IMG/VR virus record: IMGVR_UViG_3300040801_001593
Span: 1-64,000 of that record
Direction: 5' to 3' (one strand)
Length of the DNA stretch: 64,000 nt
DNA from: a virus
The translations under genes and the position numbers were made by a program. Positions 3,561-26,141 of the stretch are shown here, in pieces (positions within the stretch are counted from its first letter, which is position 1; every line of letters begins with the position of its first letter). The notes below the pieces were generated by a model. It searched no databases and was not told where the DNA came from. It was given only the letters and a program-made list of their open reading frames with translations.

Positions 3561-3587
3561 GTTTTATAGTATATTTATACTATAATT
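3561..3587 (+). promoter_or_regulatory. reiterated AT-rich promoter/operator element, copy A
   Basis: GTTTTATAGTATATTTATACTATAATT. It contains the inverted half-sites TATAGTAT/ATACTATA and a TATAAT at 3581-3586. It lies about 45 nt upstream of the ATG at 3632. Confidence 0.45.
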
Positions 3588-4316: not shown

Positions 4317-4347
4317 ACACTGTCTTATAAACCATTAGCTAACTATT

Positions 4348-4375
4348 AAATTTTATATTATATTTATAGTATAAG
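4348..4375 (+). promoter_or_regulatory. reiterated AT-rich promoter/operator element, copy B
   Basis: AAATTTTATATTATATTTATAGTATAAG. It shares TAGTATAAGATTAATTTA with copy C. Confidence 0.45.
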
Positions 4376-10375: not shown

Positions 10376-10398
10376 CCAATGGTTAATTTTAAGTAGAT

Positions 10399-10450
10399 AA
10401 ATATTAAATTTTATAGTATATTTATAATAGAAAGTAAATATACTATAAAT
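10399..10450 (+). promoter_or_regulatory. reiterated AT-rich promoter/operator element, copy D (perfect 15-bp inverted repeat)
   Basis: TTTATAGTATATTTA (10410-10424), a 10-nt spacer containing TATAAT, then TAAATATACTATAAA (10435-10449). Nearly identical to copies E and F. Confidence 0.5.
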
Positions 10451-11590: not shown

Positions 11591-11893
11591 ATGAGTAATA
11601 AAGATTATGTTCCATCAGCAATAACATTAGCACTGATGGAAGTGGCAGAATTTGATTGGGATGGCAAACTTTGTATTATGCCAGATGCAAATATGTATAA
11701 ATGGTCAAAAACTCAACCAGAAGCAGGAGGACAACCAGAGTATTGGTTATTCAAATATGATACAGATAAAGAAGAAGTTGTTGGAAAGCCAGTGCTAACT
11801 TCTAAAAACCCTTTGGTTGTCTTTTCAGCAAAGCCCTTCCCTATTGTAGAGAAAAGGAAGCATATCATAAAAGGAGTTGACTATGATAATTGA
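11591..11893 (+). CDS. hypothetical protein
   Basis: AAGGA RBS. 100 aa. Confidence 0.6.
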   Translation: MSNKDYVPSAITLALMEVAEFDWDGKLCIMPDANMYKWSKTQPEAGGQPEYWLFKYDTDKEEVVGKPVLTSKNPLVVFSAKPFPIVEKRKHIIKGVDYDN

Positions 11894-12572
11894 TGAAAAT
11901 TTTAAAGGGTTGATTAAAATGGATGGTTATTACACCATTAAGGATGTAATATGTAGTGAAAGCCTTACTATAACATTACCACTGATAATTCAAGGTGCAT
12001 TAAAAGTTGGTGGCTCATTAAAAGTTGGTGGCTGGTTAGAAGTTGGTGGCTCATTAAAAGTTGATGAATGGTTAGAAGTTGGTGGCTCATTAAAAGTTGG
12101 TGACTCATTAGAAATTAGTGGCTCATTAAAAGTTGGTGGCTCATTAGAAATTAGTGGCTCATTAAAAGTTGGTGGCTGGTTAGAAGTTGGTTACTCATTA
12201 AAAGTTGATGAATGGTTAGAAGTTGGTGGCTCATTAAAAGTTGATGAATGGTTAGAAGTTGGTCAATCATTAAAAGTTGGTGACTCATTAGAAATTAGTG
12301 GCTCATTAAAAGTTGGTGTCTGGTTAGAAGTTGGTGGCTCATTAGAAGTTGGTGAATGGAAATCTGTGCTTGGTATAAAAACTTCATCCTGCTACTTAAT
12401 ATTCTCAACTTATGCAATTACTGTATTAGACACTCACATCAAGATAGGATGCGAATTGCATCCTAAAGAGGAGTGGAAGAACTTCACTGATGAGCAGATA
12501 CTCAAGATGGATGGTAAAAAGGCATTAAGATTTTGGAAAACATGGAAACCTATACTATTCCCTAATGGCTAA
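11883..12572 (+). CDS. hexapeptide-repeat (beta-solenoid-like) protein with conserved C-terminal domain
   Basis: ATG at 11883 lies 6 nt after AAGGAG. About 20 consecutive 6-residue repeats of form x-[SW]-L-[KE]-[VI]-[GDS] (GSLKVG/GWLEVG/DSLEIS). The C-terminal part is non-repetitive. Confidence 0.75.
   Translation: MIIDENFKGLIKMDGYYTIKDVICSESLTITLPLIIQGALKVGGSLKVGGWLEVGGSLKVDEWLEVGGSLKVGDSLEISGSLKVGGSLEISGSLKVGGWLEVGYSLKVDEWLEVGGSLKVDEWLEVGQSLKVGDSLEISGSLKVGVWLEVGGSLEVGEWKSVLGIKTSSCYLIFSTYAITVLDTHIKIGCELHPKEEWKNFTDEQILKMDGKKALRFWKTWKPILFPNG
11990..12362 (+). repeat. 18-nt tandem coding repeat array
   Basis: GGTGGCTCATTAAAAGTT and variants are reiterated head to tail. This is the DNA image of the hexapeptide repeats. 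Confidence 0.85.
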
Positions 12573-12587
12573 TTTAACTATAGATTT

Positions 12588-12640
12588 ATACTATAAAATA
12601 TAGTATATTTATAATAGAAAGTAAATATATTATAAATTTA
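12588..12640 (+). promoter_or_regulatory. reiterated AT-rich promoter/operator element, copy E
   Basis: Half-sites ATACTATA (12588), TATAGTAT (12599) and a degenerate right arm TAAATATATTATAAA. Includes TATAAT. Confidence 0.45.
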
Positions 12641-13152: not shown

Positions 13153-13160
13153 CAGTAACT

Positions 13161-13215
13161 AAATATTAAATTTTATATTATATTTATAATAGAAGGAAAG
13201 ATACTATAAACTTAA
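13161..13215 (+). promoter_or_regulatory. reiterated AT-rich promoter/operator element, copy F
   Basis: AAATATTAAATTTTATATTATATTTATAATAGAAGGAAAGATACTATAAAC. Near-identical to copy D. Confidence 0.45.
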
Positions 13216-14015: not shown

Positions 14016-14057
14016 TTATTCAGTGCTAACCTAACTGGCACTAATTTAATATTGTAA
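14016..14057 (+). pseudogene. relic 3' end of a pentapeptide-repeat gene
   Basis: It reads LFSANLTGTNLIL-stop. It is part of a perfect 49-bp repeat (14023-14071 = 14515-14563) that otherwise forms the 3' end of the first pentapeptide gene plus the intergenic RBS. Confidence 0.5.
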
Positions 14058-14078
14058 ATAAATTTAAAGGAGCTTATT

Positions 14079-14549
14079 ATGCTAATTAAAAGAAAAGATG
14101 GTACTATTGTTATCAAAGATGATAAATGTAAAACAGTTGCTGAACTATTAAAGAAGTATAAGGGACTTGGCAAGGACTTAAGAGAGGCAGACTTAAGATT
14201 TGCCGACTTAAGTAAAGTTGACTTAACTGGTGCCAACTTAGAAAACGCCTACTTAACTGGAGTTGACTTAAGAGATGCTATCTTATTCAAAGCTAACTTA
14301 AAAAACACTAACTTAAAATACGCCGACTTAGGACAGGCGGACTTAAGAGAGGCTAATTTAGAAGATGCTAATTTAGAATATAGCCACTTAGGGAAAGCTA
14401 ACTTAGAAGATGCCGACTTAAGAGAGGCTAACTTAAAACATACCATCTTATTCAAAGCAGACTTAAGAAAAGCCGACTTAACTGGTGCTAACTTAAGAGA
14501 CACTAACCTATTAGGTGCTAACCTAACTGGCACTAATTTAATATTGTAA
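14079..14549 (+). CDS. pentapeptide-repeat protein, paralogue 1
   Basis: About two dozen A(D/N)LxX pentapeptides follow a 35-aa N-terminal module, MLIKRKDGTIVIKDDKCKTVAELLKKYKGLGKDLR. Confidence 0.85.
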   Translation: MLIKRKDGTIVIKDDKCKTVAELLKKYKGLGKDLREADLRFADLSKVDLTGANLENAYLTGVDLRDAILFKANLKNTNLKYADLGQADLREANLEDANLEYSHLGKANLEDADLREANLKHTILFKADLRKADLTGANLRDTNLLGANLTGTNLIL

Positions 14550-14570
14550 ATAAATTTAAAGGACTTACTA

Positions 14571-15218
14571 ATGGTAATTGAAAGAAATGATGGTACCATC
14601 ATCATTAAAGACGATGACTGTAAAACAGTTGCCGAACTATTAAAGAAGCATAAGGGACTTGGTAAGGATTTAAGATGTGCTAATTTATTCAATGCTAATC
14701 TATTCAATGTCAACTTAAAACATGCTGAATTAAAACAGGCTGACTTAAGGTGTGCTAACTTAAAACACGCTGAATTAAAACTGGCTGACTTAGGACAAGC
14801 TGACTTAAGATGCGCTAACTTAGAACAGGTTTACTTAGAACAGGCTAACTTGTTCAATGCTAACTTAAAACACACTAACTTAAAACAGGCTAACCTATCT
14901 GGTGCTATCTTAAGATATGCCAACTTGAAACACACTAACTTAAAACAGGCTAACCTATCTGGTGCTATCTTAAGATTTGCCAACTTAGAAGATGCTAATT
15001 TATTCAATGTCAACTTAGAACAAGCGGACTTAGAAGATGCCAACTTATTCAATGCCAACTTAACTGGTGCTAACTTAAGAGACACTAATTTATTCAATGC
15101 TAATTTAGAACAAGCGGACTTAGGACAGGCTATCTTAGAACAGGCGGACTTAACCTCTTCTAACTTAAAAGAGGCGGACTTAAGGTATGCCGACTTAACT
15201 GACACCAAGTTAGAGTAA
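14571..15218 (+). CDS. pentapeptide-repeat protein, paralogue 2
   Basis: Same N-terminal module (MVIERNDGTIIIKDDDCKTVAELLKKHKGLGKDLR), followed by about three dozen pentapeptides. Confidence 0.85.
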   Translation: MVIERNDGTIIIKDDDCKTVAELLKKHKGLGKDLRCANLFNANLFNVNLKHAELKQADLRCANLKHAELKLADLGQADLRCANLEQVYLEQANLFNANLKHTNLKQANLSGAILRYANLKHTNLKQANLSGAILRFANLEDANLFNVNLEQADLEDANLFNANLTGANLRDTNLFNANLEQADLGQAILEQADLTSSNLKEADLRYADLTDTKLE

Positions 15219-15479
15219 ACACAAGTAAAATATAAATTACCATTCTACCCTCAAACTGCATTGCCCACTGCCTCCACACCGGAGGTTATTTATAATATTC
15301 CTATAAAGGACTATATAAATAGAATAAAGTCTTTAATACTACTTAATAAAGGAATAAAGAGTATATTCCTTTATAATACCTTATAAGTTATCTAATAAGA
15401 GAAGAAGTAAGTTATATATAGAAAAAGGGTATATCTCCTATACCTATTATAAAATTCAAAAAAAAGAATAAGCTGTGAT

Positions 15480-16340
15480 GCTGATACTGAGAAAAAATGG
15501 GTAGGCATTGTTTTAGTGTTGGTGGGATTGGGTTGTGGTAAGGAATGGTGATTTTGTGCTATGACAATGGGGATGGTATTACATCCCTATCATGGTCAAC
15601 ATTGCCACCTGTTTTAGCCAAGAAAACATTGCTTATTGCCAGTATTAACAATTTTTATTGAGCAACATTGCCATGTGTCTAACCCGTCATGACGCCCATA
15701 AATCCATGATATCCATGACCAAAACTCAATAAGCCAAGTAGCCATTGCCATGTGTCCAACACGTCATGACGCCCATGACCATCTCCCATGATAATCCATG
15801 ATAATCTCCCATGACGCCCATGACCAAGTAGCCATAAAGTACTTGGCTATCCATGATATTTCCCATCTATTTTTAGTCATGACGCCCATGACCAAGTGAC
15901 CAAGTCATATGGCATTGCTGACTGATTATCATGATATTTCCCATCTATTTTTAGTCATGACGCCCATGACTTTCTCCCATGATATACCTGCCAAGTCATA
16001 TGGCAATGCTGACTGATTATCATGATAATTTCCCATGACGCCCATGACCAAAACTCAATCCATGACCATGTCCAAGTAGCCATAAAGCACTTGTCTATCC
16101 ATGACCAAAATTCAACCCAACTCTTGGACAAAATTCAACCCAACTCTTGGACAAAATTCAATGGACAAAATTCAATGGCAAAATTCAATGGCAAAATTCA
16201 ATGGCAAAATTCAACCCAAGTAGCCATCTATCCATGATAATCTCCCATGTCCATTTGTCCATGATATCCATCTACCATGACGCCCATAATAATCCATGAT
16301 AATCAAATGGCAATGTATAGATGCCAACATGTCTATTAAT
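15480..16340 (+). repeat. iteron field (dense same-strand short direct repeats, no credible ORF)
   Basis: Hand count. CCATGA occurs 19 times on the top strand. CATGACGCCCAT occurs 7 times, ATCCATGA 8 times and CCAAGTAGCCAT 4 times. There are also direct repeats of 41, 37 and 33 bp. Confidence 0.9.
16106..16217 (+). repeat. head-to-tail tandem array built on CAAAATTCAA
   Basis: The 23-mer CAAAATTCAACCCAACTCTTGGA occurs twice, then CAAAATTCAATGG(A) four times, then CAAAATTCAACCC. Confidence 0.95.
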
Positions 16341-16369
16341 CCTTTGGTCTACTTTATCTAATAAAACTA

Positions 16370-16398
16370 TTGCGAACGATAATATTTTATAGTATATT
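16370..16398 (+). promoter_or_regulatory. sigma70-type promoter (TTGCGA-17-TATATT)
   Basis: The spacer ACGATAATATTTTATAG and the downstream ATAAGAGTAGTTAAGAGA are shared with the three consensus promoters at 17.4-18.1 kb. It lies 55 nt upstream of the ATG at 16453. Confidence 0.55.
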
Positions 16399-16452
16399 AT
16401 AAGAGTAGTTAAGAGATACTACTTAAATAAACTTAATAAAAGGAGACTTATT

Positions 16453-16710
16453 ATGTCTAAAAGAAACTATACTTCTACTCCGGAGAGAAAAGCCCATTTC
16501 TTAGAAGTAGAGGAAATGCTACAAACCATGAAAGATACCTACGCTGACCATAAGGAAGCGTTCTCTACCATGCCCATTAGAAAGATAGAGAAATTGGTCA
16601 CTAAGCTTAAGAAGTTCTTGATGACTGGTAATGGTAGTAAAGAGGATAGAGAAGCTTTGGGCATTCTTAGAGGAGAGATTCAAAGAAGAGCGTCTTGGGG
16701 ACTACTTTAA
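16453..16710 (+). CDS. hypothetical protein (85 aa) embedded in iteron field
   Basis: AAAGGAG RBS. Helical, charged sequence. Confidence 0.65.
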   Translation: MSKRNYTSTPERKAHFLEVEEMLQTMKDTYADHKEAFSTMPIRKIEKLVTKLKKFLMTGNGSKEDREALGILRGEIQRRASWGLL

Positions 16711-16801
16711 TCCCTTAATAACTATAATAGTAGTATACTTTATCTTATTTATAGAGTATACTGCTATTACCTCTATACTTTTATAACAGGAGAGAGATAT
16801 A

Positions 16802-17137
16802 ATGGATAAGATTGTTTCTGGAGGTAATTATAAGTTTTTGACTAAAAAACTAAATGCTGTTTTTGGTCCAACAGAAGTGATGACCAATTCCATCAAGTCT
16901 GTATTTAAAGAGGACTGGGAAGTTGGTCTATTGGTAGAAGTAGATGGTAATGGTGTTAAAGACCTTATGGATAAGTATGCTTGTGTTCATTTCTTTGAGC
17001 ATGATAGCTTGGTTACTTCCTGTAACCTTGATGATGGCAAGTTTATTCTTAATAAGAATGATGATATGCTGTCCATCTCCTATCCTGCCATGGGCATCAC
17101 TTGGTACATTATCCCTATTAGACTGTTAGAAAACTAA
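16802..17137 (+). CDS. hypothetical protein (111 aa)
   Basis: CAGGAGAG RBS. A strong terminator follows. Confidence 0.65.
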   Translation: MDKIVSGGNYKFLTKKLNAVFGPTEVMTNSIKSVFKEDWEVGLLVEVDGNGVKDLMDKYACVHFFEHDSLVTSCNLDDGKFILNKNDDMLSISYPAMGITWYIIPIRLLEN

Positions 17138-17159
17138 TTGTCCTTTATTAAGTGGAATT

Positions 17160-17194
17160 GGGAAGCTGTTATGGCTTCCCATTCTTTTTATTTG
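17160..17194 (+). terminator. rho-independent terminator
   Basis: GGGAAGC-TGTTATG-GCTTCCC followed by ATTCTTTTTATTT. Confidence 0.7.
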
Positions 17195-17410
17195 TTTAGA
17201 CATATAGCATTGCCGTATGCTGACCATTGTTACCTGTACCTATAGATTGATATCTGTTATATGTGAATATACCATGATATCCCCCATAATATACAGGATT
17301 TACAAATGGACAAGAACAAGGCTATAAATTAGGTTTATAAAAAGTAAAGCTATTAATAAGAGGTAAATTCTAAAAAGTAAAGAGAAAAAATATTTTAAAA
17401 AATAAAGAAA

Positions 17411-17443
17411 ATCGTTGACAACGATTAAAAAATATAGTATAAT
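17411..17443 (+). promoter_or_regulatory. consensus sigma70 promoter 1 with palindromic -35 operator
   Basis: TTGACA (17415-17420), exact 17-nt spacer, TATAAT (17438-17443). The -35 box is centred in the perfect palindrome ATCGTTGACAACGAT (17411-17425). An A/T-rich tract lies upstream. Confidence 0.8.
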
Positions 17444-17484
17444 ATAAGAGTAGTTAAGAGATTAATTTAATAGGAGGGGTAAAG

Positions 17485-17637
17485 ATGGAAACGAATTATT
17501 TTTTTAATAGAGAAGAAAGAAAAGAAATAGAGAGAGAAAGGGCTTTTTCTATATCCGGTATTATAGAGTATAAAGACTATTACCTTATACCTATTAATAC
17601 CCTTAATAAGGAAGAAAAAAATATTTTAAAAAAATAA
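17485..17637 (+). CDS. small hypothetical protein, cassette 1 (50 aa, below ORF-track cutoff)
   Basis: TAGGAGGGG RBS. My own translation is METNYFFNREERKEIERERAFSISGIIEYKDYYLIPINTLNKEEKNILKK. It ends just before promoter 2. Confidence 0.5.
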   Translation: METNYFFNREERKEIERERAFSISGIIEYKDYYLIPINTLNKEEKNILKK

Positions 17638-17642
17638 AAATA

Positions 17643-17675
17643 ATCGTTGACAACGATTAAAAAATATAGTATAAT
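17643..17675 (+). promoter_or_regulatory. consensus sigma70 promoter 2 with palindromic -35 operator
   Basis: ATCGTTGACAACGAT (17643-17657), TTGACA at 17647-17652, 17-nt spacer, TATAAT at 17670-17675. Confidence 0.8.
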
Positions 17676-17715
17676 AAGAGTAGTTAAGAGACTAAAAGAA
17701 ATAGAAGGGGTAAAG

Positions 17716-18078
17716 ATGAAAACGAAAGATATTTTAAAAGTAGTAAGAGAAGAAGGCCTTAAACTCTCTAATAGAGAGTTTAAGGACGTATTAGAGACTT
17801 TAAGTATAAATACGGTACTATCTATAGATTACTCTTATATAGGAGATATCGCCTATATAGATAGTAGTAGCGATTCTTACCCGAACGAAGATTTTTTATC
17901 CGAGGAAAATCTAAAAGAGTTAGAAGAACTATATACCTTATCGGTAGTAGTAGTAGTAGAAGATAGAGAGGTAATCCTTTATAAAGTAAGTAAAGATAAT
18001 TTCCTCCTATATATAGAGGGAACGGATAGAGCCGAAGAATCCCTAATCTTTTTTAAAATAATCGTTGACAACGATTAA
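17716..18078 (+). CDS. hypothetical acidic protein, cassette 2 (120 aa)
   Basis: ATG at 17716 follows GAAGGGG. The track start at 17647 is the TTG of the -35 box itself. The 3' end (..IIVDND-stop) reads through promoter 3. Confidence 0.65.
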   Translation: MKTKDILKVVREEGLKLSNREFKDVLETLSINTVLSIDYSYIGDIAYIDSSSDSYPNEDFLSEENLKELEELYTLSVVVVVEDREVILYKVSKDNFLLYIEGTDRAEESLIFFKIIVDND

Positions 18079-18093
18079 AAAATATAGTATAAT
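18061..18093 (+). promoter_or_regulatory. consensus sigma70 promoter 3 with palindromic -35 operator
   Basis: ATCGTTGACAACGAT (18061-18075), TTGACA at 18065-18070, 17-nt spacer, TATAAT at 18088-18093. Confidence 0.8.
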
Positions 18094-18151
18094 ATAAGAG
18101 TAAGGTTAATAAAGACCTTACTTAATTCTAAACTTAATAAAAGGAGTTTCT

Positions 18152-18568
18152 ATGGAAACGAAAGCTACTAAAAAAGTTACTAAGAGAGAAGATTATAAGG
18201 GCGAAATCGCTCTTAAAAGAGCGAGAGTTAGCGGGATAGCGCTAAAAGCGAGTACTGCCCGTTCCGGAGGTATCTACGAAGTAAAGAGTAATAATAACGG
18301 TACGAGTACCGTTCTAAACGGAATATTTAAAGCTTACTTTCCGAAAAAAAAGGAGGTAAACGCCTCTCTATTCGGGGAGGTCTTAACCTCTCTCTTTACC
18401 GGTAAAGAGAAGGAGAAGGACGCTATAGTAGAAAAAGGAATATCTGGCTACGAGAAGACTACCGGAAGGAAGTATAAAAACTTCCCTACCCTTAGATCTC
18501 GCCTAATTTCCGAAATTAAGCGAGGGAATATATTATCGTTTAAGCTAATAAGCGAACCGGTACGCTAA
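18152..18568 (+). CDS. hypothetical basic protein, cassette 3 (138 aa), CpG-rich coding sequence
   Basis: AAAGGAG RBS. Heavy use of NCG codons, unlike the rest of the window. Confidence 0.7.
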   Translation: METKATKKVTKREDYKGEIALKRARVSGIALKASTARSGGIYEVKSNNNGTSTVLNGIFKAYFPKKKEVNASLFGEVLTSLFTGKEKEKDAIVEKGISGYEKTTGRKYKNFPTLRSRLISEIKRGNILSFKLISEPVR

Positions 18569-18576
18569 TTAATTTT

Positions 18577-18612
18577 ATCCCCCCTTCTTTAAAAAAGGAA
18601 GGGGAGGGGGGA
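18577..18612. terminator. bidirectional terminator candidate between convergent genes
   Basis: ATCCCCCCTTC...GGAAGGGGAGGGGGGAT forms an imperfect hairpin flanked by A/T runs on both sides. Confidence 0.5.
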
Positions 18613-18712
18613 TTTAAAATTTAGAAAACTTTTTCTTACCGCCCAATATAGCATCCCACACAAGCTCCGGAAATTTTTTATCAAAAAACTCATAATCCCA
18701 ATACTAAAACTT

Positions 18713-19126
18713 TTAATCGTTAGCAGTATCCAAATCCTTGAACCATAAACTGTAAACACTCACTTGTCTAATATCACCATCTGCACTCCTAATCATGGCA
18801 TACTGAGAATTATCACAGAACTCAATAAATTGCGCTTCAATAACTGCATCTTTAGGACTATCACATCTTACTTTGCACGCTTTCCCAAATAGCATGGGTA
18901 CTGAGTCTAATTTTAATTGCAGCCTGTTGATTTTGTTGTGAAGTTTATCAATCTCAGAAATAAGATGGGACATCTGGCTTTCTAATGGCTTATTGAACAA
19001 GAGAGGTTGCCCATCTTCTATTGACCCTGCTTCAGCTTTATGAACTTCGTCACATCCTGTATCCGGTAATATATTTTTAGGCTCCTCTACTTTTTTACCA
19101 TCAGAGCAAAACTTGACTTTTCTCAC
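18713..19126 (-). CDS. hypothetical protein
   Basis: GTG start 6 nt after AAAGGA, overlapping the upstream stop (GTGA). 137 aa. Confidence 0.65.
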   Translation of the reverse strand: MRKVKFCSDGKKVEEPKNILPDTGCDEVHKAEAGSIEDGQPLLFNKPLESQMSHLISEIDKLHNKINRLQLKLDSVPMLFGKACKVRCDSPKDAVIEAQFIEFCDNSQYAMIRSADGDIRQVSVYSLWFKDLDTAND

Positions 19127-19362
19127 TTCTTATCCTTTCTAATAAAATTATCCTGACGATTATCATGGTCTACTGCTCGTACTTCTTCTTTGTGAAAATA
19201 AAACACCCTTATGGCATCAGCACCAAAAAACGGCATAGCCTTGCCAGGCAACTGAACTTTATAATCATACTTGCTTGCATAGTCATTAGGTAATACAGTT
19301 CCAATTTCACCTGAAGTAAATCTGCCTGCCATATCAGATATGATTATCTCCACTTGTTTCAT
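19123..19362 (-). CDS. hypothetical protein (79 aa)
   Basis: AGGA RBS. The N-terminal MKQVEI and C-terminal RKDKK are shared with neighbouring genes. Confidence 0.6.
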   Translation of the reverse strand: MKQVEIIISDMAGRFTSGEIGTVLPNDYASKYDYKVQLPGKAMPFFGADAIRVFYFHKEEVRAVDHDNRQDNFIRKDKK

Positions 19363-19370
19363 AGTTAATC

Positions 19371-19676
19371 CTAAATGCTGTTTAAGATTCTATAAGTATG
19401 AGAAATGCTAACATTAAAGGCTTTAGATATGTCTGCAACCTTTGTGCCATTATTGCTCATGTCAAGCATCTTTCTATTGCGGTCTGGATTATTTGCTCTG
19501 GAGCTTAGAACTTTTAACTGCTTCCTTCTTAAATTAATGGCTTGGCGAGTTACACCATATTGGTCAGCAATTCCTTGGTCTGTTTTAAAAACTTTGACCA
19601 AGTCCATCATCTCTTCTCTGCCAATGTTTGCTACTGCACCTCTGTTTCTTGGTTTTTTAATTTCCACTTGTTTCAT
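19371..19676 (-). CDS. helix-turn-helix DNA-binding protein
   Basis: Two HTH-like segments: GIADQYGVTRQAINLRRKQL and TKVADISKAFNVSISHTYRIL. 101 aa. Confidence 0.55.
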   Translation of the reverse strand: MKQVEIKKPRNRGAVANIGREEMMDLVKVFKTDQGIADQYGVTRQAINLRRKQLKVLSSRANNPDRNRKMLDMSNNGTKVADISKAFNVSISHTYRILNSI

Positions 19677-19894
19677 TTCTTATCCTTTCTAATTTTTCCA
19701 GTACCTTTACAAATAGGGCACTTATGATACTTCTCGGTACTTTGGTAATAGTGCTTGCCAACACCATCACAGAAACTGCATTGACCAAAATTATCATCTC
19801 TCTTTTTAAGTAGAATAATAGTGACTGCTAAAAAGAGAGCAAATGCATTTATAGAGATACATATTATAGTGGTGCATATTATAGTATTATTCAT
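19673..19894 (-). CDS. membrane-anchored protein with DnaJ-type zinc finger
   Basis: N-terminal transmembrane helix, then CSFCDGVGKHY...CPICKGTGKI, which is two CxxCxGxG motifs. Confidence 0.6.
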   Translation of the reverse strand: MNNTIICTTIICISINAFALFLAVTIILLKKRDDNFGQCSFCDGVGKHYYQSTEKYHKCPICKGTGKIRKDKK

Positions 19895-19899
19895 TTGGG

Positions 19900-20199
19900 C
19901 TACTTTCCTTTAGGTTTGTCAAATGTTAGTTCTAAAAAGTAATATTGAAGATAGGATAAGCCAGAGCCATCCCAATACTCAAATTCTCTATGCAATAGGT
20001 AGTAGGCTTGACCCTTCTCTAAAGGAGAGGTCTGTTCAAACTTACCCTTCAAATATCTCATAGACCCATCTTCCCATTTAATCAGAATCTGATTACCAGA
20101 AAACTGAATATCAGATAAGACCTTGTGAGAAAGAGTGTCAAACTCAGATGCAAGTGATAGAGAACAGAAAACCAGTAAAAGCATTAGGCTTTTAAACAT
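19900..20199 (-). CDS. secreted protein (signal peptide)
   Basis: AAAGGAG RBS. MFKSLMLLLVFCSLSLA-SEF looks like a cleavable signal peptide. Confidence 0.65.
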   Translation of the reverse strand: MFKSLMLLLVFCSLSLASEFDTLSHKVLSDIQFSGNQILIKWEDGSMRYLKGKFEQTSPLEKGQAYYLLHREFEYWDGSGLSYLQYYFLELTFDKPKGK

Positions 20200-20220
20200 A
20201 ATAAAACTCCTTTAATAAAT

Positions 20221-20270
20221 TAAACTTATAAATATAGTATACTATAAAATTTTATATTATACTACCTGAA
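20221..20270 (-). promoter_or_regulatory. reiterated AT-rich promoter/operator element, copy H (leftward)
   Basis: The minus strand reads AAAATTTTATAGTATACTATATTTATAAG. TATAGTATACTATA (20233-20246) is a perfect 14-bp palindrome. Confidence 0.45.
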
Positions 20271-20422
20271 AATAAGACAGTGGCTCTTTATACTATCTTA
20301 TAGCTTCTAATAATAAACTCTATACCTTAAAAATCGTTAGAATAACACCTTGATAAGGGCTTAAACTAACCTTATACTACTATCCGGTAGTATAAATATA
20401 AATAAGCCCTTAAAAGGCTTTA

Positions 20423-20956
20423 TTAGCGCCTGAACCTTCTATTGAGCCTTCTTCTATTGATGCCATAATTTTTAGAAGGTGGAGGAGGTGCTGTTTTACT
20501 TATGGACTGTATGTTCTCAGGAACAGCATGCTCAATAACAGGCTCCTTACTTTTGAAATCTATATTAGCTATATATAAGGTAAAAGTTACACAGCCAACA
20601 TATGTTGAGAACTCAGCAACAGAACCTTGACCAAAAATTTCTACAACCTTACTTTTAATCAATTCAATATAATCAGCATTATAATAAATGCTATTAGGAG
20701 AGCAACCTAAGAACTTTCTATCAGCATTGTTATGAAAATCTCTATGATAATGATTCAAGTAAGGGTCATCAGAGCAATCAAGAATCAACCTACATCTTAT
20801 AGTTACAAGGGCATCCATACCTTCAGAGAATTCAACCTTTTCAAAATTAACCCTTATATACTTAGTGCGGATAGCTAATTTAAAATCAGCCATCCGCTTT
20901 TTTAAGTCTTTTCTTGATTTAATTAAGTCTGCTTCTTTATCAAAATTAAATCCCAT
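20423..20956 (-). CDS. hypothetical protein with Arg-rich C-terminus
   Basis: AAGGA RBS. 177 aa. Last gene of the leftward operon. Confidence 0.65.
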   Translation of the reverse strand: MGFNFDKEADLIKSRKDLKKRMADFKLAIRTKYIRVNFEKVEFSEGMDALVTIRCRLILDCSDDPYLNHYHRDFHNNADRKFLGCSPNSIYYNADYIELIKSKVVEIFGQGSVAEFSTYVGCVTFTLYIANIDFKSKEPVIEHAVPENIQSISKTAPPPPSKNYGINRRRLNRRFRR

Positions 20957-20959
20957 TTA

Positions 20960-21346
20960 TCATTCCTTAACTTTTTTAAGCCGGACTCCTCTTCTGGACT
21001 GAGCAAATTGCCGAGTCTTCAAAGCTTGTTTGCACTTTTTGCAACCAACAGGAGGTTTGGCTTTATTCTCTTCTTCTGATTCTTCCTCAGTTTCTTCAAC
21101 ACCAAGTTCACCACTTTCTGATTCAGAGTATCTTGGTGAAAAAGATGAACCTCCATCTCCAATATTAGGATACTCATCACTTCCACTTACATCAAATGCA
21201 GAAGGAACTTCATTAGAAATCTGAGGTACTTCTTTTTCTACATGTGTAGAGACTTTATCTCTTTCTTGCCTTCTGACAATATGAGCTTTGCGCTCTTTAT
21301 CCCTGAAAGCTTGAACCTGCTTTTGTGTTCTTTGATTCTTACCCAT
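20960..21346 (-). CDS. hypothetical basic-acidic-basic protein
   Basis: 128 aa. Starts 1 nt after the patatin stop. Confidence 0.6.
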   Translation of the reverse strand: MGKNQRTQKQVQAFRDKERKAHIVRRQERDKVSTHVEKEVPQISNEVPSAFDVSGSDEYPNIGDGGSSFSPRYSESESGELGVEETEEESEEENKAKPPVGCKKCKQALKTRQFAQSRRGVRLKKVKE

Positions 21347-21347
21347 A

Positions 21348-22295
21348 TTAGAAACCTTCCTTTAAAAGTTTAATCATATCAGGATTTACCTTTGTCACTA
21401 ATTTTTCTCCATAATCCAAGTATTCCTTAATGTGTTTAACACCATCAAGCTTGTCAAGCTTATTAGGTAGCTCAACATTAAGTCTAAATACCCTTACATT
21501 AGGATTCATTTGGTCTACATAATAGCCAGATAGCACTTGGTCTTGGGTAGCTTCTGCTCTTGCTTGACCTAAGTAAGACCCAATCTGTCTAATAGTTCTC
21601 ATTTTTCTGGCTTTGGAAATAGGGTTGTATTGATTAACATCTCCACAACCAATAGAGACAATTACTACCTTTTCATCTTTCCATTTTGCCAGAACCTCCA
21701 TAAGACTATTTTCAAGAGTACAACTATTAATACCTTGACCACCATCTTGGAACACTGCTCCTACCTTTTGACCAATACTGCCAGAAGGAGAAAAGTTCTT
21801 CCATCTGAAATTAGGTACAACCATCTTTCCAAAATATAGAACTGCACTCAATGCAGACCAAGCAATAACATCAATCAGTTTTTCACCACCATCTTTAACG
21901 TCATAACTTTTCAAGAAGTGAGTTCTCATAGAACAAAGGTTGAAAGTAGTAAGAATCATATTAGTCTTGGCATCTCTATACCTAAAGTCTTTAGGTATAT
22001 AGTCCTCCATAGTTTCAAGAAACTTATCCCTATCATACTTAACACCATGTCTAAGAAAATAGAAAGGGTTGAACTTGAATAATTTAGGAAGATGTTCAAG
22101 GTATAGCTCTTGAATATAAGCTGCACTTATACCATAACCAAGACAACCTCCAATTATAGCACCAGTAGAAGTTCCTGAGATGAGGTCAAATGTTTCATGA
22201 CTTTTCTCTCCAAGAGTTTCTTCTATGTACCTTAATACAGTTGCAGGGATTACTCCCTTACATCCGCCACCATCAATTTGAAGAATTTTTTTCAT
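21348..22295 (-). CDS. patatin-like phospholipase
   Basis: DGGGCKGV (oxyanion hole GGxKG), GTSTG (GxSxG nucleophile) and FQDGGQG (catalytic Asp, DGG) occur in canonical order. Confidence 0.85.
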   Translation of the reverse strand: MKKILQIDGGGCKGVIPATVLRYIEETLGEKSHETFDLISGTSTGAIIGGCLGYGISAAYIQELYLEHLPKLFKFNPFYFLRHGVKYDRDKFLETMEDYIPKDFRYRDAKTNMILTTFNLCSMRTHFLKSYDVKDGGEKLIDVIAWSALSAVLYFGKMVVPNFRWKNFSPSGSIGQKVGAVFQDGGQGINSCTLENSLMEVLAKWKDEKVVIVSIGCGDVNQYNPISKARKMRTIRQIGSYLGQARAEATQDQVLSGYYVDQMNPNVRVFRLNVELPNKLDKLDGVKHIKEYLDYGEKLVTKVNPDMIKLLKEGF

Positions 22296-24223: not shown

Positions 24224-25184
24224 AATAAATCTTTAACAATGGTGAATTATAGAGGGATGGAGTCTCATACACCCTGCAAAGTTTATTCCAACCATCTCTA
24301 TTAGGTTCCACAACTGTAGAGTATTCATATTCTAAGTCCTCTACAAGTCTAACTACCTTCCAGTTAAGAATCATAAGCTTAATATAATCAAAAAGCTTTT
24401 TGACATCTTTGTGGTCTTCACCTCTACGCTTAATCATTAGCCTTAAAAAACCTTCAGGTGTTCCATCACAATCAAGGTAGCAATCTAAGTTCTTCTTGAA
24501 CTGGAAGCGATAGACAGACTTGACATTATCTCCTGAATCACCTCTAATAACTTTGTGCAACATTACCTTACTTTTGTCAGTAGTATCAAAATGCTTCTCT
24601 ACAACTTCATCAGTAGGAGGATTGCCATCTCCAAGTATGATAGTTAGATTTGGATATCTGGGAATCAGTTGCCACATATCCTTATCAGTTGAGAATAGAA
24701 ATATTTTACTATTCTGGTTTTTCTTGATGTAAGAAGCTATTACATCATCTGCTTCTTCTCCATCATGCCAAATAGAAGTGTGAGGAATATGTGCCATAAA
24801 ATCTTTGCAGATTTGCATAGGGTCATACCCAAGGTCTTCTTTCTCTCGGTTCCCTTTGTAGCGAATCCGTTCTTTTTCATTTTCTCCATCCCAACTCTTA
24901 TCAGGGGAGTGACTTGCAAGAGCTTCTTGATTATCTTCATAGAGTTTTCTTTTGCGAGTAGGAGACCTATCCTCACAAATGATAAGTTCAGGTATACTTC
25001 CACTCTCTGAGCAAAGGTTGATAGCCCTCTGCAACATCTTACATAGACCAAGTATACATCCTACATTAATCCCATCAGTGTTAATAGTTCCTTCATCCAT
25101 AGTTGCAAATAAACTTCTGTATACAGCATTAGAGAAATCTATCACAACTTTGGTACTGGTTATTTCTTTCATTCTTCTTTTCAC
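24222..25184 (-). CDS. 5'-3' exonuclease / flap endonuclease (Pol I 5'-nuclease, T5 D15-like)
   Basis: VVIDFSNAVYRSLFA, YKGNREK, EEADDVIASY, STDKDMWQL and VIRGDSGDNV match the conserved blocks of the 5'-nuclease family. GTG at 25184 lies 9 nt after AAGGAGGG; ATG at 25172 is an alternative start. Confidence 0.85.
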   Translation of the reverse strand: MKRRMKEITSTKVVIDFSNAVYRSLFATMDEGTINTDGINVGCILGLCKMLQRAINLCSESGSIPELIICEDRSPTRKRKLYEDNQEALASHSPDKSWDGENEKERIRYKGNREKEDLGYDPMQICKDFMAHIPHTSIWHDGEEADDVIASYIKKNQNSKIFLFSTDKDMWQLIPRYPNLTIILGDGNPPTDEVVEKHFDTTDKSKVMLHKVIRGDSGDNVKSVYRFQFKKNLDCYLDCDGTPEGFLRLMIKRRGEDHKDVKKLFDYIKLMILNWKVVRLVEDLEYEYSTVVEPNRDGWNKLCRVYETPSLYNSPLLKIY

Positions 25185-25522
25185 AGGTATCTTCCCTCCT
25201 TCGGGTTTAATATAATAAATTTTTAACTTGCTAAAAAGCTTTTTATTAAAATAAATTAAACAAAATAGAACAAACACTAATTATTCTGTTGTAAAAGTTT
25301 TATATTATTACTCAAAGTAGGGATAATTTTAACGGTGGGAAATACGGTTCCTATATAAAAAAATTTAATCGTACCCCCCCCTCTTAGTAGCGGTCAATGG
25401 CATTTAGTCTTAAAAGGTGGCTTATATAATAAATATATATTTATATAATAAATATATATATAATATAGGGCAGGTTGGAAGGGTAAACGGCAGAAGCCGT
25501 TCATCAATGAAAAAGGGATGGC

Positions 25523-25822
25523 ATGATACCTAGAATCCATAAGAAAAATGATGAAAAGATAGAGTATGGGAAACCTCATCAGTACCATACTAATGATGGG
25601 CTTAATACTTGCCAAGATTGTGGTGGAAGTTTTAAGAATAATGCAAAGTTTGTCTATGTTGATAAGAACTGTGAGTCTAAACTGGTTTGTGAACCATGTG
25701 TAAGAGAGGCAGTTAATAAAAAGTTGGTTATATTCTATGACACAGAAGATTTTTATGAGAAAAGATATGCATCTGGATTTATAGACAAGTTGGTAAAGGA
25801 GTTCCAAAATGTTAGAAATTAA
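25523..25822 (+). CDS. hypothetical Cys-rich protein
   Basis: 99 aa. CQDCGG...CEPC. First gene of the rightward late block. Confidence 0.55.
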   Translation: MIPRIHKKNDEKIEYGKPHQYHTNDGLNTCQDCGGSFKNNAKFVYVDKNCESKLVCEPCVREAVNKKLVIFYDTEDFYEKRYASGFIDKLVKEFQNVRN

Positions 25823-26141
25823 AAAAGTCCTTGACCTTCCTATCCAAAAAGGTTATATTAATTGGGACAACTTAGAAAAGAAAGTCCATGCAGCAATAGT
25901 AGCCTTGATTGAGAATGAGGAGATGGTGAAGGCAGGAGAAGCCCCTAAGCTTGGAGATGAAATAGACTTCTGTGCAAATGCCCCTGGTGATAAAGGCAAT
26001 ATGGTAAGATGGGCTTATAAGCTATACAGCCCTAGATTTCTTAAGGGCAAGCTATGGTGTTCAGGATTTATGCTTGGGAAATATATGAGTGAAAATGCTA
26101 ATGACCCATTATGGTTTCCTAAAACACAACAGAGGTTTTAA
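25809..26141 (+). CDS. hypothetical protein (positional candidate for small terminase)
   Basis: AAGGAG RBS. 110 aa. Lies immediately upstream of, and coupled (TAATG) to, the large terminase. There is no sequence motif support. Confidence 0.35.
   Translation: MLEIKKVLDLPIQKGYINWDNLEKKVHAAIVALIENEEMVKAGEAPKLGDEIDFCANAPGDKGNMVRWAYKLYSPRFLKGKLWCSGFMLGKYMSENANDPLWFPKTQQRF

What the first reader, a model, noticed from the sequence alone, without database searches (positions are those of the whole stretch)
15480..16340. Strand-polar iteron field: candidate replication origin, partition site or genome terminus
There is no believable ORF for more than 1.2 kb between the stop at 15218 and the gene at 16453. 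The core of this gap is built almost entirely from short direct repeats, all in one orientation.

Hand counts:
- CCATGA occurs 19 times on the top strand between 15703 and 16297. I saw its complement TCATGG once nearby.
- The 12-mer CATGACGCCCAT occurs 7 times (15688, 15765, 15810, 15878, 15956, 16034, 16276). Three of the six intervals are 77-78 bp.
- ATCCATGA occurs 8 times and CCAAGTAGCCAT 4 times (15734, 15824, 16072, 16216).
- Longer direct repeats: 41 bp perfect (15852-15892 = 15930-15970), 37 bp with 1 mismatch (15900-15936 / 15991-16027), and 33 bp with 2 mismatches (15667-15699 / 15744-15776).

Phased, same-orientation iterons next to an AT-rich tract (15300-15480) are the classical layout of iteron-type origins and of plasmid or phage centromeres. 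The arrangement also resembles the repeat-rich ends of T7/T5-type genomes, where strong host-type early promoters sit just inside the terminus, as they do here at 16370 and 17415-18093. No initiator is recognisable, so the cognate binding protein would be new.
Basis: partly seen in the sequence, partly recalled or inferred. Interest (0 to 1): 0.8.

Follow-up and report, generated by a model that had tools for sequence, protein, structure and literature searches.

The report
One-directional repeat field in phage genome
A gene-free 1.2-kb stretch of an uncultured microbial-mat phage is packed with short DNA repeats that all point the same way, and it most likely marks where the phage's genome ends or DNA packaging begin (less likely where replication starts), which is a known kind of element with an entirely new sequence.

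Summary
The 1,234-bp gap (15219-16452) is non-coding and matches no Rfam family.

Its core (15660-16310) holds 25 YC-CATGA-Y sites, all on the top strand. These include 7 copies of CATGACGCCCAT, which occurs nowhere else in the 64 kb. Three further repeat families are present. The tract beside it is the least stable duplex stretch in the window. The 'phasing', however, comes from nested duplications, not helical register.

Nothing similar exists in any collection searched. No initiator or partition protein is recognisable in the window.

New evidence comes from independent single-sample DNA assemblies of the same French microbial mats. They recover the 3 kb just right of the field in six samples. 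The left flank is recovered in none. Regions further right are recovered in progressively fewer samples. Every such contig stops inside the field.

The field sits between a terminator and four early sigma70-type promoters. The terminase is distantly related to those of terminal-repeat phages. Phage T5 has a similar repeat field at its terminal-repeat boundary.

I therefore favour a packaging or terminal-repeat boundary site (~0.4) over an iteron origin (~0.27). A partition site is unlikely. Read mapping would settle the question. Interest is moderate: a new member of a known kind.

The parts
15270..15286 (+). Intrinsic-terminator-like hairpin (GCCTCCACACCGGAGGT followed by a T-rich tail) that closes the long rightward gene block ending at 15218.
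15286..15470 (.). AT-rich tract (about 80% AT) with no gene downstream. It contains a 14-nt inverted repeat (15302-15315 / 15362-15375). It is the least stable 150-bp duplex stretch in the 64-kb window.
15480..15660 (+). G/T-rich left arm of the field. It carries the first CAACATTGCCA box (15597-15619). No single-sample contig reaches this part.
15660..16310 (+). Core repeat field. It holds 25 (T/C)C-CATGA-(C/T) sites, all on the top strand, in about 19 different flanking contexts. Composition is C 27% and G 14%.
15688..15702 (+). 15-mer iteron copy 1 (CATGACGCCCATAAA, 2 mismatches).
15765..15779 (+). 15-mer iteron copy 2 (CATGACGCCCATGAC, exact).
15810..15824 (+). 15-mer iteron copy 3 (exact).
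15878..15892 (+). 15-mer iteron copy 4 (exact).
15956..15970 (+). 15-mer iteron copy 5 (exact). One population variant, G15968T, is seen in contig L025.
16034..16048 (+). 15-mer iteron copy 6 (exact).
16276..16290 (+). 15-mer iteron copy 7 (CATGACGCCCATAAT, 2 mismatches).
15852..15970 (+). 78-bp tandem duplication containing the 41-bp perfect repeat (15852-15892 = 15930-15970). One unit (15849-15926) is missing in contig L024 from another sample.
15597..15760 (+). Three forward copies of the box CA(A/G)CATTGCCA(T/C), with CATTGCCA at 15600, 15666 and 15743.
15994..16320 (-). Two reverse copies of the same box (TGGCAATG at 16001 and 16308). They form inverted-repeat pairs with the left-hand boxes across the core.
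16106..16214 (+). Tandem arrays sharing CAAAATTCAA (7 copies): a 23-bp unit x2.4, then a 13-bp unit x4.8.
16370..16398 (+). First and weakest copy of the four-fold repeated early promoter unit (TTGCGA-17-TATATT). It drives the 85-aa gene at 16453-16710.
17415..18093 (+). Three perfect sigma70-consensus promoters (17415, 17647, 18065). Each carries the near-palindrome AATCGTTGACAACGATT over the -35 element. They drive small genes with no known relatives.
15690..18995 (.). Block recovered in six single-sample assemblies. The left ends of all contigs fall inside the field (15690-16305). Several right ends cluster at 18968-19245, where there is no repeat.

Best explanation
The field is a cis-acting DNA site on which many copies of an unidentified phage protein assemble head-to-tail. 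That protein is most plausibly the small terminase or an end-processing factor. The field marks the left boundary of the packaging unit of a linear genome. That boundary is either the edge of a roughly 3-kb direct terminal repeat or the start point of a rightward packaging series. The terminal repeat would carry the host-promoter-driven early genes.

On this reading, a concatemer is recognised and cut in or beside the field. The first DNA behind it is the early module with its four sigma70-type promoters.

**Shown:**
- the anatomy of the field;
- that it is non-coding and unique;
- its place in the transcription map;
- the over-representation of the DNA to its right.

**Inferred:**
- protein binding;
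- the identity of the binding protein;
- that the over-representation reflects physical genome ends.
For: 1. **Population data.** The single-sample assemblies are DNA metagenomes of the same microbial mats (PMC8605020).
   - Exact-protein contig counts are 6-7 for the four early genes at 16453-18568.
   - They are 3, 2 and 3 for genes at 19.4, 21.0 and 25.8 kb, and 1 at 32 and 43.5 kb.
   - They are 1 for all seven left-flank genes tested between 2.4 and 14.0 kb. That single contig is the 89.7-kb co-assembly contig.
   - The contigs are 99.9-100% identical to the window and align over their full length, apart from L024's left end, where one 78-bp repeat unit is absent. None extends left of 15690.
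   - Several right ends cluster at 18968-19245, where there is no repeat.
   - The left flank has the same palindrome-avoidance and tetranucleotide signature as the rest of the genome (r = 0.9). The join is therefore not chimeric.
2. **Position in the transcription map.** The order is terminator (15270), field, then four copies of one early promoter unit driving small genes without relatives, then a convergent terminator hairpin at about 18.6 kb.
3. **Terminase relatives.** The large terminase's detectable relatives (about 28% identity) include the Streptomyces cluster BE phages. Those phages have direct terminal repeats of about 11 kb (PMC5764925).
   - One of them, Birchlyn, starts with 906 ORF-free bp containing several direct-repeat families.
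4. **T5 analogue.** T5 has an ORF-free region of 1.2-1.9 kb with several repeat families. These include a 15-mer present 9 times on one strand at irregular spacing, straddling the end of its terminal repeat.
5. **Short core in many contexts.** The core motif recurs in about 19 different flanking contexts at 9-13-bp spacing, as expected for cooperative head-to-tail binding.
Against: - **No read-level data.** Contig counts are only a proxy for coverage.
- **Repeats alone could break assembly.** Four of the six left contig ends coincide with internal repeats. The field could therefore break assemblies whether or not it is a physical end.
- **No common end point.** Left ends are scattered over 600 bp rather than piling up at one position.
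- **Odd right boundary.** A terminal-repeat edge near 18.97 kb would fall inside an ORF (18713-19126).
- **Distance from the terminase.** The terminase genes lie 10 kb away. In many siphoviruses pac or cos sits next to the small terminase gene.
- **Weak terminase evidence.** Similarity is only about 28%. There is no Pfam or PDB match, so packaging type cannot be read from the terminase.
- **Origin-like layout.** An AT-rich, easily melted tract next to direct repeats is equally the textbook layout of an origin.
- **No relatives.** No relative carrying the field exists, so conservation cannot be tested.
Confidence: 0.4

Rival explanations
1. The field is a replication origin. A phage initiator binds the CATGA heptamers and 15-mers, melts the adjacent AT-rich tract (15286-15470) and loads the replisome. 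The excess of DNA to the right would then reflect rightward (unidirectional) replication intermediates in infected mat cells.
For: - An array of direct repeats sits beside the least stable duplex stretch of the window.
- That AT tract has no gene to serve as a promoter for.
- The repeats are unique to this locus.
- DNA over-representation falls off with distance to the right.
- Short 6-8-bp iterons flanking an AT-rich region are known from staphylococcal pathogenicity-island origins. Non-coding repeat-rich origins are known from lactococcal phages (my own knowledge, not checked here).
Against: - The repeats have no helical phasing.
- There are no DnaA or IHF boxes.
- No initiator, helicase, primase or polymerase is recognisable anywhere in the window. 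The nearest DNA-metabolism genes (ligase-like, Ogg-like, RadC) are 8-13 kb to the left.
- Over-representation is one-sided, with a sharp left edge: 0 of 7 left-flank genes against 6-7 contigs 0.1-2 kb to the right. A bidirectional origin would not give this pattern.
Confidence: 0.27
2. The field has no dedicated function. It is an unstable non-coding spacer that grew by slippage and unequal recombination. Its strand polarity is simply inherited from the duplicated units.
For: - Nested recent duplications are evident: a 41-bp perfect repeat, a 78-bp tandem, and 23-bp and 13-bp tandems.
- Copy number differs between samples, with a 78-bp unit missing in L024. One sample carries a SNP inside an iteron.
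- No relatives exist with which to show conservation.
Against: - The 5-7-bp core recurs in about 19 different flanking contexts, not only inside large duplicated blocks.
- Four distinct repeat families coexist, two of them arranged as inverted boxes bracketing the core.
- Elsewhere the phage genome is tightly packed.
- This reading does not explain the copy-number step at the field.
Confidence: 0.12
3. The field is a T5-style injection-stop or early-regulation site. Host or phage proteins bound to it would pause genome entry after the early module. Alternatively they would insulate or regulate the early promoters just downstream.
For: - The architecture matches T5 Repeat Region 3: ORF-free, several direct and inverted repeat families, and a 15-mer 9 times on one strand, next to pre-early genes with strong host promoters.
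- If the right end of the 15.7-19.0-kb block is the end that enters first, the order is terminus, early genes, promoters, repeat field. That mirrors the T5 left terminal repeat.
Against: - The paired DnaA boxes proposed as the working parts in T5 are absent.
- No A1 or A2 homologues were detected by Pfam or PHROGs.
- The function of the T5 region is itself unproven.
- Two-step injection is known only in T5-like phages.
Confidence: 0.1
4. The field is an array of orientation-dependent nuclease-attenuating (Chi-like) motifs. It would protect a linear end or a rolling-circle tail from the host RecBCD or AddAB enzyme.
For: - Strict strand polarity of a short core repeated 25 times.
- The bottom strand is G-rich, as known Chi sequences are (Chi properties from my own knowledge).
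- The field lies next to the inferred genome end.
Against: - The host and its Chi sequence are unknown.
- The heptamer shows no strand bias elsewhere in the phage: 11 copies on the top strand and 12 on the bottom.
- The longer exact 15-mers and the other repeat families are not needed for this function.
Confidence: 0.05
5. The field is a partition (centromere) site of a plasmid-like prophage. A ParR, ParB or TubR-type adaptor would bind it.
For: Arrays of short same-orientation repeats at about 9-13-bp spacing resemble the parC and tubC centromeres (my own knowledge).
Against: - No ParA, ParM, TubZ or adaptor gene is found next to the field or anywhere in the window. The only faint hit (Alp7A_C, below threshold) lies in the scaffold-protein position of the head module.
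- No integrase, repressor, protelomerase or other sign of lysogeny is found.
- This reading does not explain the one-sided DNA excess.
Confidence: 0.03

Closest known systems
Phage T5 'Repeat Region 3' / injection-stop (iss) region at the inner end of the left terminal repeat
   Same: - ORF-free for 1.2-1.9 kb.
- Several overlapping families of direct repeats, inverted repeats and palindromes.
- One 15-mer (TGTGCAAATCCGACA) occurs 9 times on one strand at irregular spacing.
- The region lies at a terminal-repeat boundary, next to pre-early genes driven by strong host-type promoters.
   Different: - No sequence similarity.
- No paired DnaA boxes.
- No A1, A2 or dmp homologues.
- The core unit here is a much shorter heptamer at 9-13-bp spacing.
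- A terminal repeat is inferred here, not demonstrated, and would be about 3 kb rather than 10 kb.
Repeat arrays flanking the terminal repeat of T7 (SRL/SRR), followed by the A1-A3 host promoters (my own knowledge: Dunn and Studier 1983; not checked here)
   Same: - Short imperfect repeats in a non-coding stretch at the concatemer junction.
- The stretch is immediately followed by a cluster of strong sigma70 promoters for early genes.
   Different: - T7 is a podovirus with a 160-bp repeat and its own RNA polymerase.
- This phage is a long-tailed phage with an unrelated terminase.
- No similarity in repeat sequence.
Iteron-type origins (lambda ori, P1 oriR/incA, pathogenicity-island and lactococcal phage origins) (my own knowledge)
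   Same: Same-orientation direct repeats beside an AT-rich, easily melted tract, in a non-coding region.
   Different: - Repeats are not 17-22 bp and not at helical-turn spacing.
- No initiator gene overlaps or adjoins the field.
- No DnaA or IHF sites.
P1 pac site (my own knowledge)
   Same: A short hexamer centred on a 4-bp palindromic methylation-type site (GATC in P1, CATG here), repeated many times around a packaging cleavage region.
   Different: - P1 has 7 copies in 162 bp inside pacA. Here there are 25 copies in 650 bp, 10 kb from the terminase genes.
- No CATG methylase has been identified.
Left end of Streptomyces phage Birchlyn (cluster BE, terminal-repeat phage, relative by large terminase)
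   Same: - The first 906 bp at the physical end are ORF-free and contain several direct-repeat families, for example CTATGTCTTATAT 4 times at 47-58-bp spacing.
- The terminal repeat carries many small genes.
   Different: - Far fewer repeats, of different sequence.
- Terminase identity is only about 28%.
- The host and the rest of the genome are unrelated.
Type II/III plasmid centromeres (parC of R1, tubC of pBtoxis) (my own knowledge)
   Same: Arrays of about 10 short direct repeats, all in one orientation, that are coated by an adaptor protein.
   Different: Those centromeres sit directly beside their partition operon. No such genes are present here.

Membership tests
Iteron-type replication origin | Three or more direct repeats of about 17-22 bp, spaced in helical register | tested here: not met
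   The repeats are 15-mers at 45, 68, 78, 78 and 242 bp, plus heptamers at 9, 10 and 13 bp. No periodicity is seen between 8 and 14 bp.
Iteron-type replication origin | Adjacent AT-rich DNA-unwinding element | tested here: met
   Positions 15286-15435 are 80% AT and form the least stable 150-bp stretch of the window. Promoter regions come close to this value.
Iteron-type replication origin | Cognate initiator gene overlapping or adjoining the repeats | tested here: not met
   Pfam and PHROGs find no initiator, helicase or primase in any neighbouring gene or elsewhere in the 64 kb. About 26 kb of the genome lies outside the window.
Iteron-type replication origin | Host factor sites (DnaA boxes, IHF) | tested here: not met
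   Only two 1-mismatch DnaA-box matches, which is the chance level, and no IHF consensus.
Iteron-type replication origin | Supports autonomous or phage-dependent replication | not testable with these tools
   Requires cloning or marker-frequency sequencing.
Terminal-repeat boundary / packaging start site | Step in DNA copy number starting at the site | tested here: inconclusive
   By proxy only. Genes just right of the field are found on 6-7 contigs, and all seven left-flank genes on 1. No contig crosses the field. Read depth was not available.
Terminal-repeat boundary / packaging start site | Pile-up of read or molecule starts at fixed positions | not testable with these tools
   Contig left ends are scattered between 15690 and 16305, and most sit at internal repeats. 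Reads are needed.
Terminal-repeat boundary / packaging start site | Terminase belongs to a clade with that packaging mode | tested here: inconclusive
   The best relatives (about 28% identity) include cluster BE phages with 11-kb terminal repeats. There is no Pfam or PDB match.
Terminal-repeat boundary / packaging start site | Lies at the start or end of the transcription map, next to host-promoter-driven early genes | tested here: met
   The order is terminator at 15270, the field, then four early promoter copies at 16370-18093.
T5-type injection-stop region | ORF-free region of at least 1 kb with multiple direct and inverted repeat families beside pre-early genes | tested here: met
   compared with the T5 record.
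T5-type injection-stop region | Paired DnaA boxes and A1/A2 genes | tested here: not met
   No DnaA boxes. The early proteins match no family.
Partition centromere | Adjacent partition operon (ParA/ParB, ParM/ParR or TubZ/TubR) | tested here: not met
   No such family appears in any scanned protein of the window.
Structured non-coding RNA | Match to a curated RNA family, or a conserved structure | tested here: not met
   Rfam gives no hit and there are no tRNAs. The top-strand fold z-score of -5.1 comes from the few inverted boxes. No relatives exist for a covariation test.

The most novel reading that the evidence does not exclude
The heptamer array is not a terminase or initiator site. Instead it is a new kind of polar end-protection or entry-control element. 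Two possibilities are a dense Chi-like array that switches off the host's end-degrading nuclease as it enters from the genome end, or a landing pad for an early protein without known relatives that caps or pauses the incoming DNA. Either would make it the first such element described for a phage of a microbial-mat host, possibly a cyanobacterium.
Probability: 0.07. Interest if true: 0.7.

Novelty: new member of a known kind. Interest (0 to 1): 0.38.

Why it matters
This phage has no sequenced relatives. It comes from a hypersaline or brackish microbial mat, its terminase matches no family model, and its early genes have no relatives.

Locating its genome ends or origin would anchor the whole gene map into early, middle and late classes. 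It would also define a new pairing of DNA motif and binding protein.

The case also shows that counts of single-sample contigs can reveal a copy-number step in an uncultured phage. The practical value is modest, because repeat-rich non-coding fields at phage termini and origins have been known since T5, T7 and lambda.

Tried and rejected
**Searches for related DNA: nothing found.**
- GenBank phages, near and distant modes.
- PLSDB plasmids.
- IMG/VR, with the 16-mer and with a 39-mer from the left arm. The 16-mer gave only single chance hits.
- JGI metagenome scan with a pattern of two 12-mers. It returned only high-GC tandem repeats and a eukaryotic telomere-like array.

**Relatives found by protein: no comparison possible.**
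- The 85-aa gene next to the field has no homologue beyond itself.
- The 200-aa left-flank protein belongs to a large, widespread family that carries no shared gene order (L023).
- The nearest relative by exonuclease and terminase is a 105-kb IMG/VR contig. It has no gap or repeat field within 20 kb on that side.
- The terminase finds nothing in the GTDB genomes.

**Alternative readings of the sequence: rejected.**
- Coding under a reassigned stop codon. All three stop codons occur in every frame, and the rest of the genome is open in the standard code.
- Restriction-site decoy. TCATGA is not avoided elsewhere in the genome.
- DnaA or IHF sites. None are present.
- Circular mini-element. No contig has overlapping ends.
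- Chimeric join. The composition signatures of the two flanks match.
- Metatranscriptome artefact. The samples are DNA metagenomes.

**Candidate binding protein: no result.**
- The structure prediction of the 85-aa protein gave a helical bundle (pLDDT 72) with no informative fold match.

**Look-ups that were uninformative.**
- Several left-flank and other genes were 'not on record'. The position index lacks the co-assembly contig, and the start codons I chose may differ from those called.
Full report
**1.

The stop at 15218 and the next credible start at 16453 leave 1,234 bp. All six frames in that gap are broken by stops of all three kinds. The longest ORF (71 aa) is made of the repeats themselves.

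- CCATGA occurs 19 times on the top strand of 15480-16340, against 11 in the remaining 63 kb. TCATGG occurs once.
- CATGACGCCCAT occurs 7 times at the stated positions. It is never on the other strand and never elsewhere.
- ATCCATGA occurs 8 times and CCAAGTAGCCAT 4 times.

The 15-mer CATGACGCCCATGAC with up to 3 mismatches hits 8 times, always inside the field. Shuffles give 0.38 expected.

The 41-bp perfect repeat, the 37-bp repeat with 1 mismatch and the 33-bp repeat with 2 mismatches are exact as described.

CATG density is 44 per kb in the core against 2.1 per kb elsewhere.

One correction is needed: the repeats are not helically phased. The 77-78-bp intervals are the period of a 78-bp tandem duplication and a 77-bp duplication. 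The 25 CATGA sites show no periodicity between 8 and 14 bp. Their local spacings are 9 bp (6 times), 13 bp (4 times) and 10 bp.

**2. Anatomy, from left to right**

1. A terminator-like hairpin at 15270-15286 closes the long rightward gene block.
2. An 80% AT tract follows at 15286-15470. It contains an inverted repeat and has no gene downstream. It is the least stable 150-bp duplex stretch of the window, although several promoter regions come close.
3. A G/T-rich arm runs from 15480 to 15660.
4. The core runs from 15660 to 16310 and is C-rich and G-poor (27% against 14%).
   - It holds 25 sites of consensus (T/C)C-CATGA-(C/T). All are on the top strand, in about 19 different flanking contexts.
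   - Seven of these sites are part of the 12-15-mer.
5. Three further repeat families are interleaved with the core motif:
   - CCAAGTAGCCAT, 4 copies.
   - CAAAATTCAA, 7 copies, arranged as 23-bp and 13-bp tandem arrays at 16106-16214.
   - The box ACATTGCCA, with three forward copies on the left (15600, 15666, 15743) and two reverse copies on the right (16001, 16308).

None of these motifs occurs as a cluster anywhere else in the window.

**3. What the field is not**

- It is not coding, even with a reassigned stop codon.
- It matches no Rfam family and contains no tRNA.
- The top strand folds better than shuffles do (z = -5.1). This comes from the few inverted boxes, and the bottom strand does not fold better (z = -1.9).
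- It has no DnaA or IHF consensus sites.
- It is not a cluster of an avoided restriction site. TCATGA is present at about the expected frequency elsewhere.

**4. Genome context**

The window is a tailed phage with no close relatives. Recognisable genes include:
- a large terminase (26141-28051), portal, capsid and a 2,122-aa tape measure protein;
- a leftward block at 18.7-25.8 kb with a 5'-3' exonuclease, a patatin-like protein, a methyltransferase and a helix-turn-helix protein;
- a rightward block at 1-15.2 kb with RadC, an Ogg-like glycosylase, a ligase-like protein and two pentapeptide-repeat proteins.

Immediately right of the field lie five small genes without relatives. They are driven by four copies of one promoter unit.
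- The copies at 17415, 17647 and 18065 match the sigma70 consensus 12/12.
- Each of those three carries the near-palindrome AATCGTTGACAACGATT over the -35 element.
- The copy at 16370 is degenerate.

No initiator, helicase, primase, polymerase or partition protein is recognisable in the 64 kb. About 26 kb of the genome lies outside the window.

**5. No homologues, so no conservation test**

- The field and its flanks match nothing in GenBank phages, PLSDB plasmids, IMG/VR or the JGI metagenome scan.
- The gene next to the field has no homologue.
- The closest relative by exonuclease and terminase has a different layout on that side.

**6. Population evidence, which is the new information**

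The proteins of the window sit on an 89,736-bp JGI contig. I infer that this contig comes from the co-assembly.

The related short contigs come from IMG 3300040774-79. These are single-sample DNA metagenomes (PCR-free libraries, assembled with MEGAHIT) of brackish and hypersaline microbial mats in southern France. They were also co-assembled as 3300040801 (PMC8605020).

Exact-protein contig counts are as follows:

| Genes | Contigs carrying the exact protein |
|---|---|
| Seven left-flank genes, 2.4-14.0 kb | 1 each (the long contig) |
| Four early genes, 16453-18568 | 6-7 |
| 19371 | 3 |
| 20960 | 2 |
| 25809 | 3 |
| 31951 | 1 |
| 43543 | 1 |

The short contigs map as follows:

| Contig | Window coordinates |
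|---|---|
| L025 | 15690-18968 |
| L024 | 15741-21841 |
| L027 | 15928-17302 |
| L029 | 16087-18995 |
| L028 | 16185-17439 |
| L026 | 16305-19245 |
| L066 | 18976-21339 |
| L067 | 19063-20143 |
| L068 | 24953-26975 |
| L069 | 25564-26510 |

- All are 99.9-100% identical to the window and align over their full length, apart from L024's left end (see below). They therefore belong to the same phage, not to a mosaic relative.
- None extends left of 15690.
- L024 lacks one 78-bp unit, and L025 has a SNP inside an iteron.
- The left flank has the same extreme palindrome avoidance and tetranucleotide usage as the rest of the genome (r = 0.9). The long contig is therefore not chimeric at the field.

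Averaged over the other 12 loci, a locus is recovered in about 8% of sample-by-locus cells. On that basis, six of six samples recovering the same 1-3 kb by chance is of the order of 1e-6. This is my own rough estimate, not a tool output.

The DNA just right of the field is therefore more abundant than the rest, and the edge lies in the field.

Caveats:
- Four of the six left ends coincide with internal repeats, so the field would break assemblies anyway.
- The left ends are scattered rather than coincident.
- These are contig counts, not read depths.
- Right ends cluster at 18968-19245, where there is no repeat or polymorphism. This hints at a second boundary about 3.3 kb away.

**7. Most likely mechanism**

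A sharp, one-sided step in copy number is what physical genome ends give.
- A terminal repeat is present twice per genome and appears as a block of doubled coverage (PMC10438801).
- A rightward headful packaging series starting at a pac site gives a step followed by a decline.

The field also sits exactly where the transcription map starts over: terminator, field, then early host-type promoters.

The large terminase's only detectable relatives (about 28% identity) include Streptomyces cluster BE phages. These carry terminal repeats of about 11 kb (PMC5764925).
- One of them begins with 906 ORF-free bp containing several direct-repeat families.
- Its terminal repeat carries many small genes.

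I therefore favour this reading (confidence about 0.4): the field is the boundary site of the packaging unit. A phage protein, with the small terminase as the obvious candidate, polymerises head-to-tail on the CATGA heptamers and 15-mers. The concatemer is processed in or beside the field. The early module is the first DNA behind the end.

Protein binding, the identity of the binder and the physical ends are inferred, not shown.

**8. Comparison with known systems**

The closest architectural match is T5 Repeat Region 3 (the iss region).
- It is ORF-free for 1.2-1.9 kb and has many direct, inverted and palindromic repeat families.
- These include a 15-mer present 9 times on one strand at irregular spacing, straddling the end of the 10,139-bp terminal repeat.
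- It lies beside pre-early genes with strong host promoters.

This field differs from the T5 region in four ways:
- it has no sequence similarity;
- it lacks the paired DnaA boxes;
- the phage lacks A1 and A2;
- the field is built on a shorter core motif.

The T7 repeat arrays around its terminal repeat, followed by the A1-A3 promoters, and the P1 pac hexamers centred on a methylation-type palindrome, are further analogues. I recall these from my own knowledge and did not check them here.

Against the defining features of an iteron origin, the field meets only the AT-rich neighbour criterion. It fails on repeat length and phasing, on an adjoining initiator gene and on host-factor boxes. Against a centromere, it fails on the partition operon.

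**9. Rival explanations**

| Rival | Confidence | Main point |
|---|---|---|
| Origin with rightward replication | 0.27 | Would explain both the AT tract and a one-sided gradient |
| Functionless expansion | 0.12 | Does not explain the many flanking contexts of the core motif or the copy-number step |
| T5-like entry or regulatory site | 0.10 | Same architecture as T5, but lacks its proposed working parts |
| Chi-like polar nuclease-attenuating array | 0.05 | Explains the polarity, but host and Chi sequence are unknown |
| Partition site | 0.03 | No partition genes anywhere in the window |

Mapping the public reads onto the contig would separate these explanations at once.

**10. Verdict**

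The finding is real and statistically overwhelming. It is almost certainly a functional cis-acting element, with a completely new sequence and an unidentified binding protein.

The kind of element is known: a repeat-rich non-coding field at a phage genome landmark.

- Novelty: a new member of a known kind.
- Interest: 0.38.

Noticed in passing
whole window: The genome avoids short palindromes to an extreme degree. TCGA occurs 0 times against about 204 expected, GATC 14, ACGT 20, CGCG 2 (of 63) and GGCC 8. CTAG occurs 0 times in the left 15 kb. Many 6-bp sites are absent altogether (GAGCTC, TCTAGA, TGATCA, TTCGAA and others). This suggests a host with many restriction systems. Together with the pentapeptide-repeat genes and the mat origin, the host may be a cyanobacterium.
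   Followed up: partly
16370-16417, 17410-17462, 17637-17691, 18055-18102: One early promoter unit is present four times. Three copies match the sigma70 consensus 12/12. Each of those three carries the near-palindrome AATCGTTGACAACGATT across the -35 element, which is probably an operator. All four copies share a conserved TAAGAGTAGTTAAGAGA start region.
   Followed up: partly
3562-3579, 4344-4368, 10398-10442, 12599-12629, 13160-13188: Intergenic motifs recur in the left block: TTTTATAGTATATTTATA(ATAGAAAGTAAATATA) and TATTAAATTTTATATTATATTTATA. They probably represent a second (middle or late) promoter class without a -35 element. The weak promoter at 16384 resembles this class.
   Followed up: no
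18968-19245: Five ends of independent single-sample contigs fall within 280 bp, three of them within 27 bp. They lie inside the ORF 18713-19126, where there is no repeat or polymorphism. This may be the right edge of an over-represented block of about 3.3 kb.
   Followed up: partly
11998-12347 (gene 11877-12572): This gene contains in-frame 36-bp tandem repeats in many copies. They give a repetitive protein that looks like a beta-helix or bactofilin (weak Pfam hints only).
   Followed up: no
14023-15218: Two adjacent paralogous pentapeptide-repeat genes (156 and 215 aa) have a duplicated 49-bp leader (14023-14071 = 14515-14563). They are the last genes before the field.
   Followed up: no
18570-18620: A hairpin built on C6 and G6 runs (CCCCCCTTCTTTAAAAAAGGAAGGGGAGGGGGG) lies between the convergent early and leftward gene blocks. 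It is probably a bidirectional terminator that the simple scan missed.
   Followed up: no
45215-58908: Two giant tail genes lie side by side: a 2,122-aa tape measure protein and a 2,442-aa protein with a DUF2793 domain. They imply a very long tail.
   Followed up: no
25422-25459: A perfect 19-bp AT-only tandem duplication (TTATATAATAAATATATAT, 2 copies) lies in the divergent intergenic region. It is just upstream of the zinc-ribbon gene, the putative small terminase gene and the large terminase gene. This is an alternative place to look for a packaging site.
   Followed up: no
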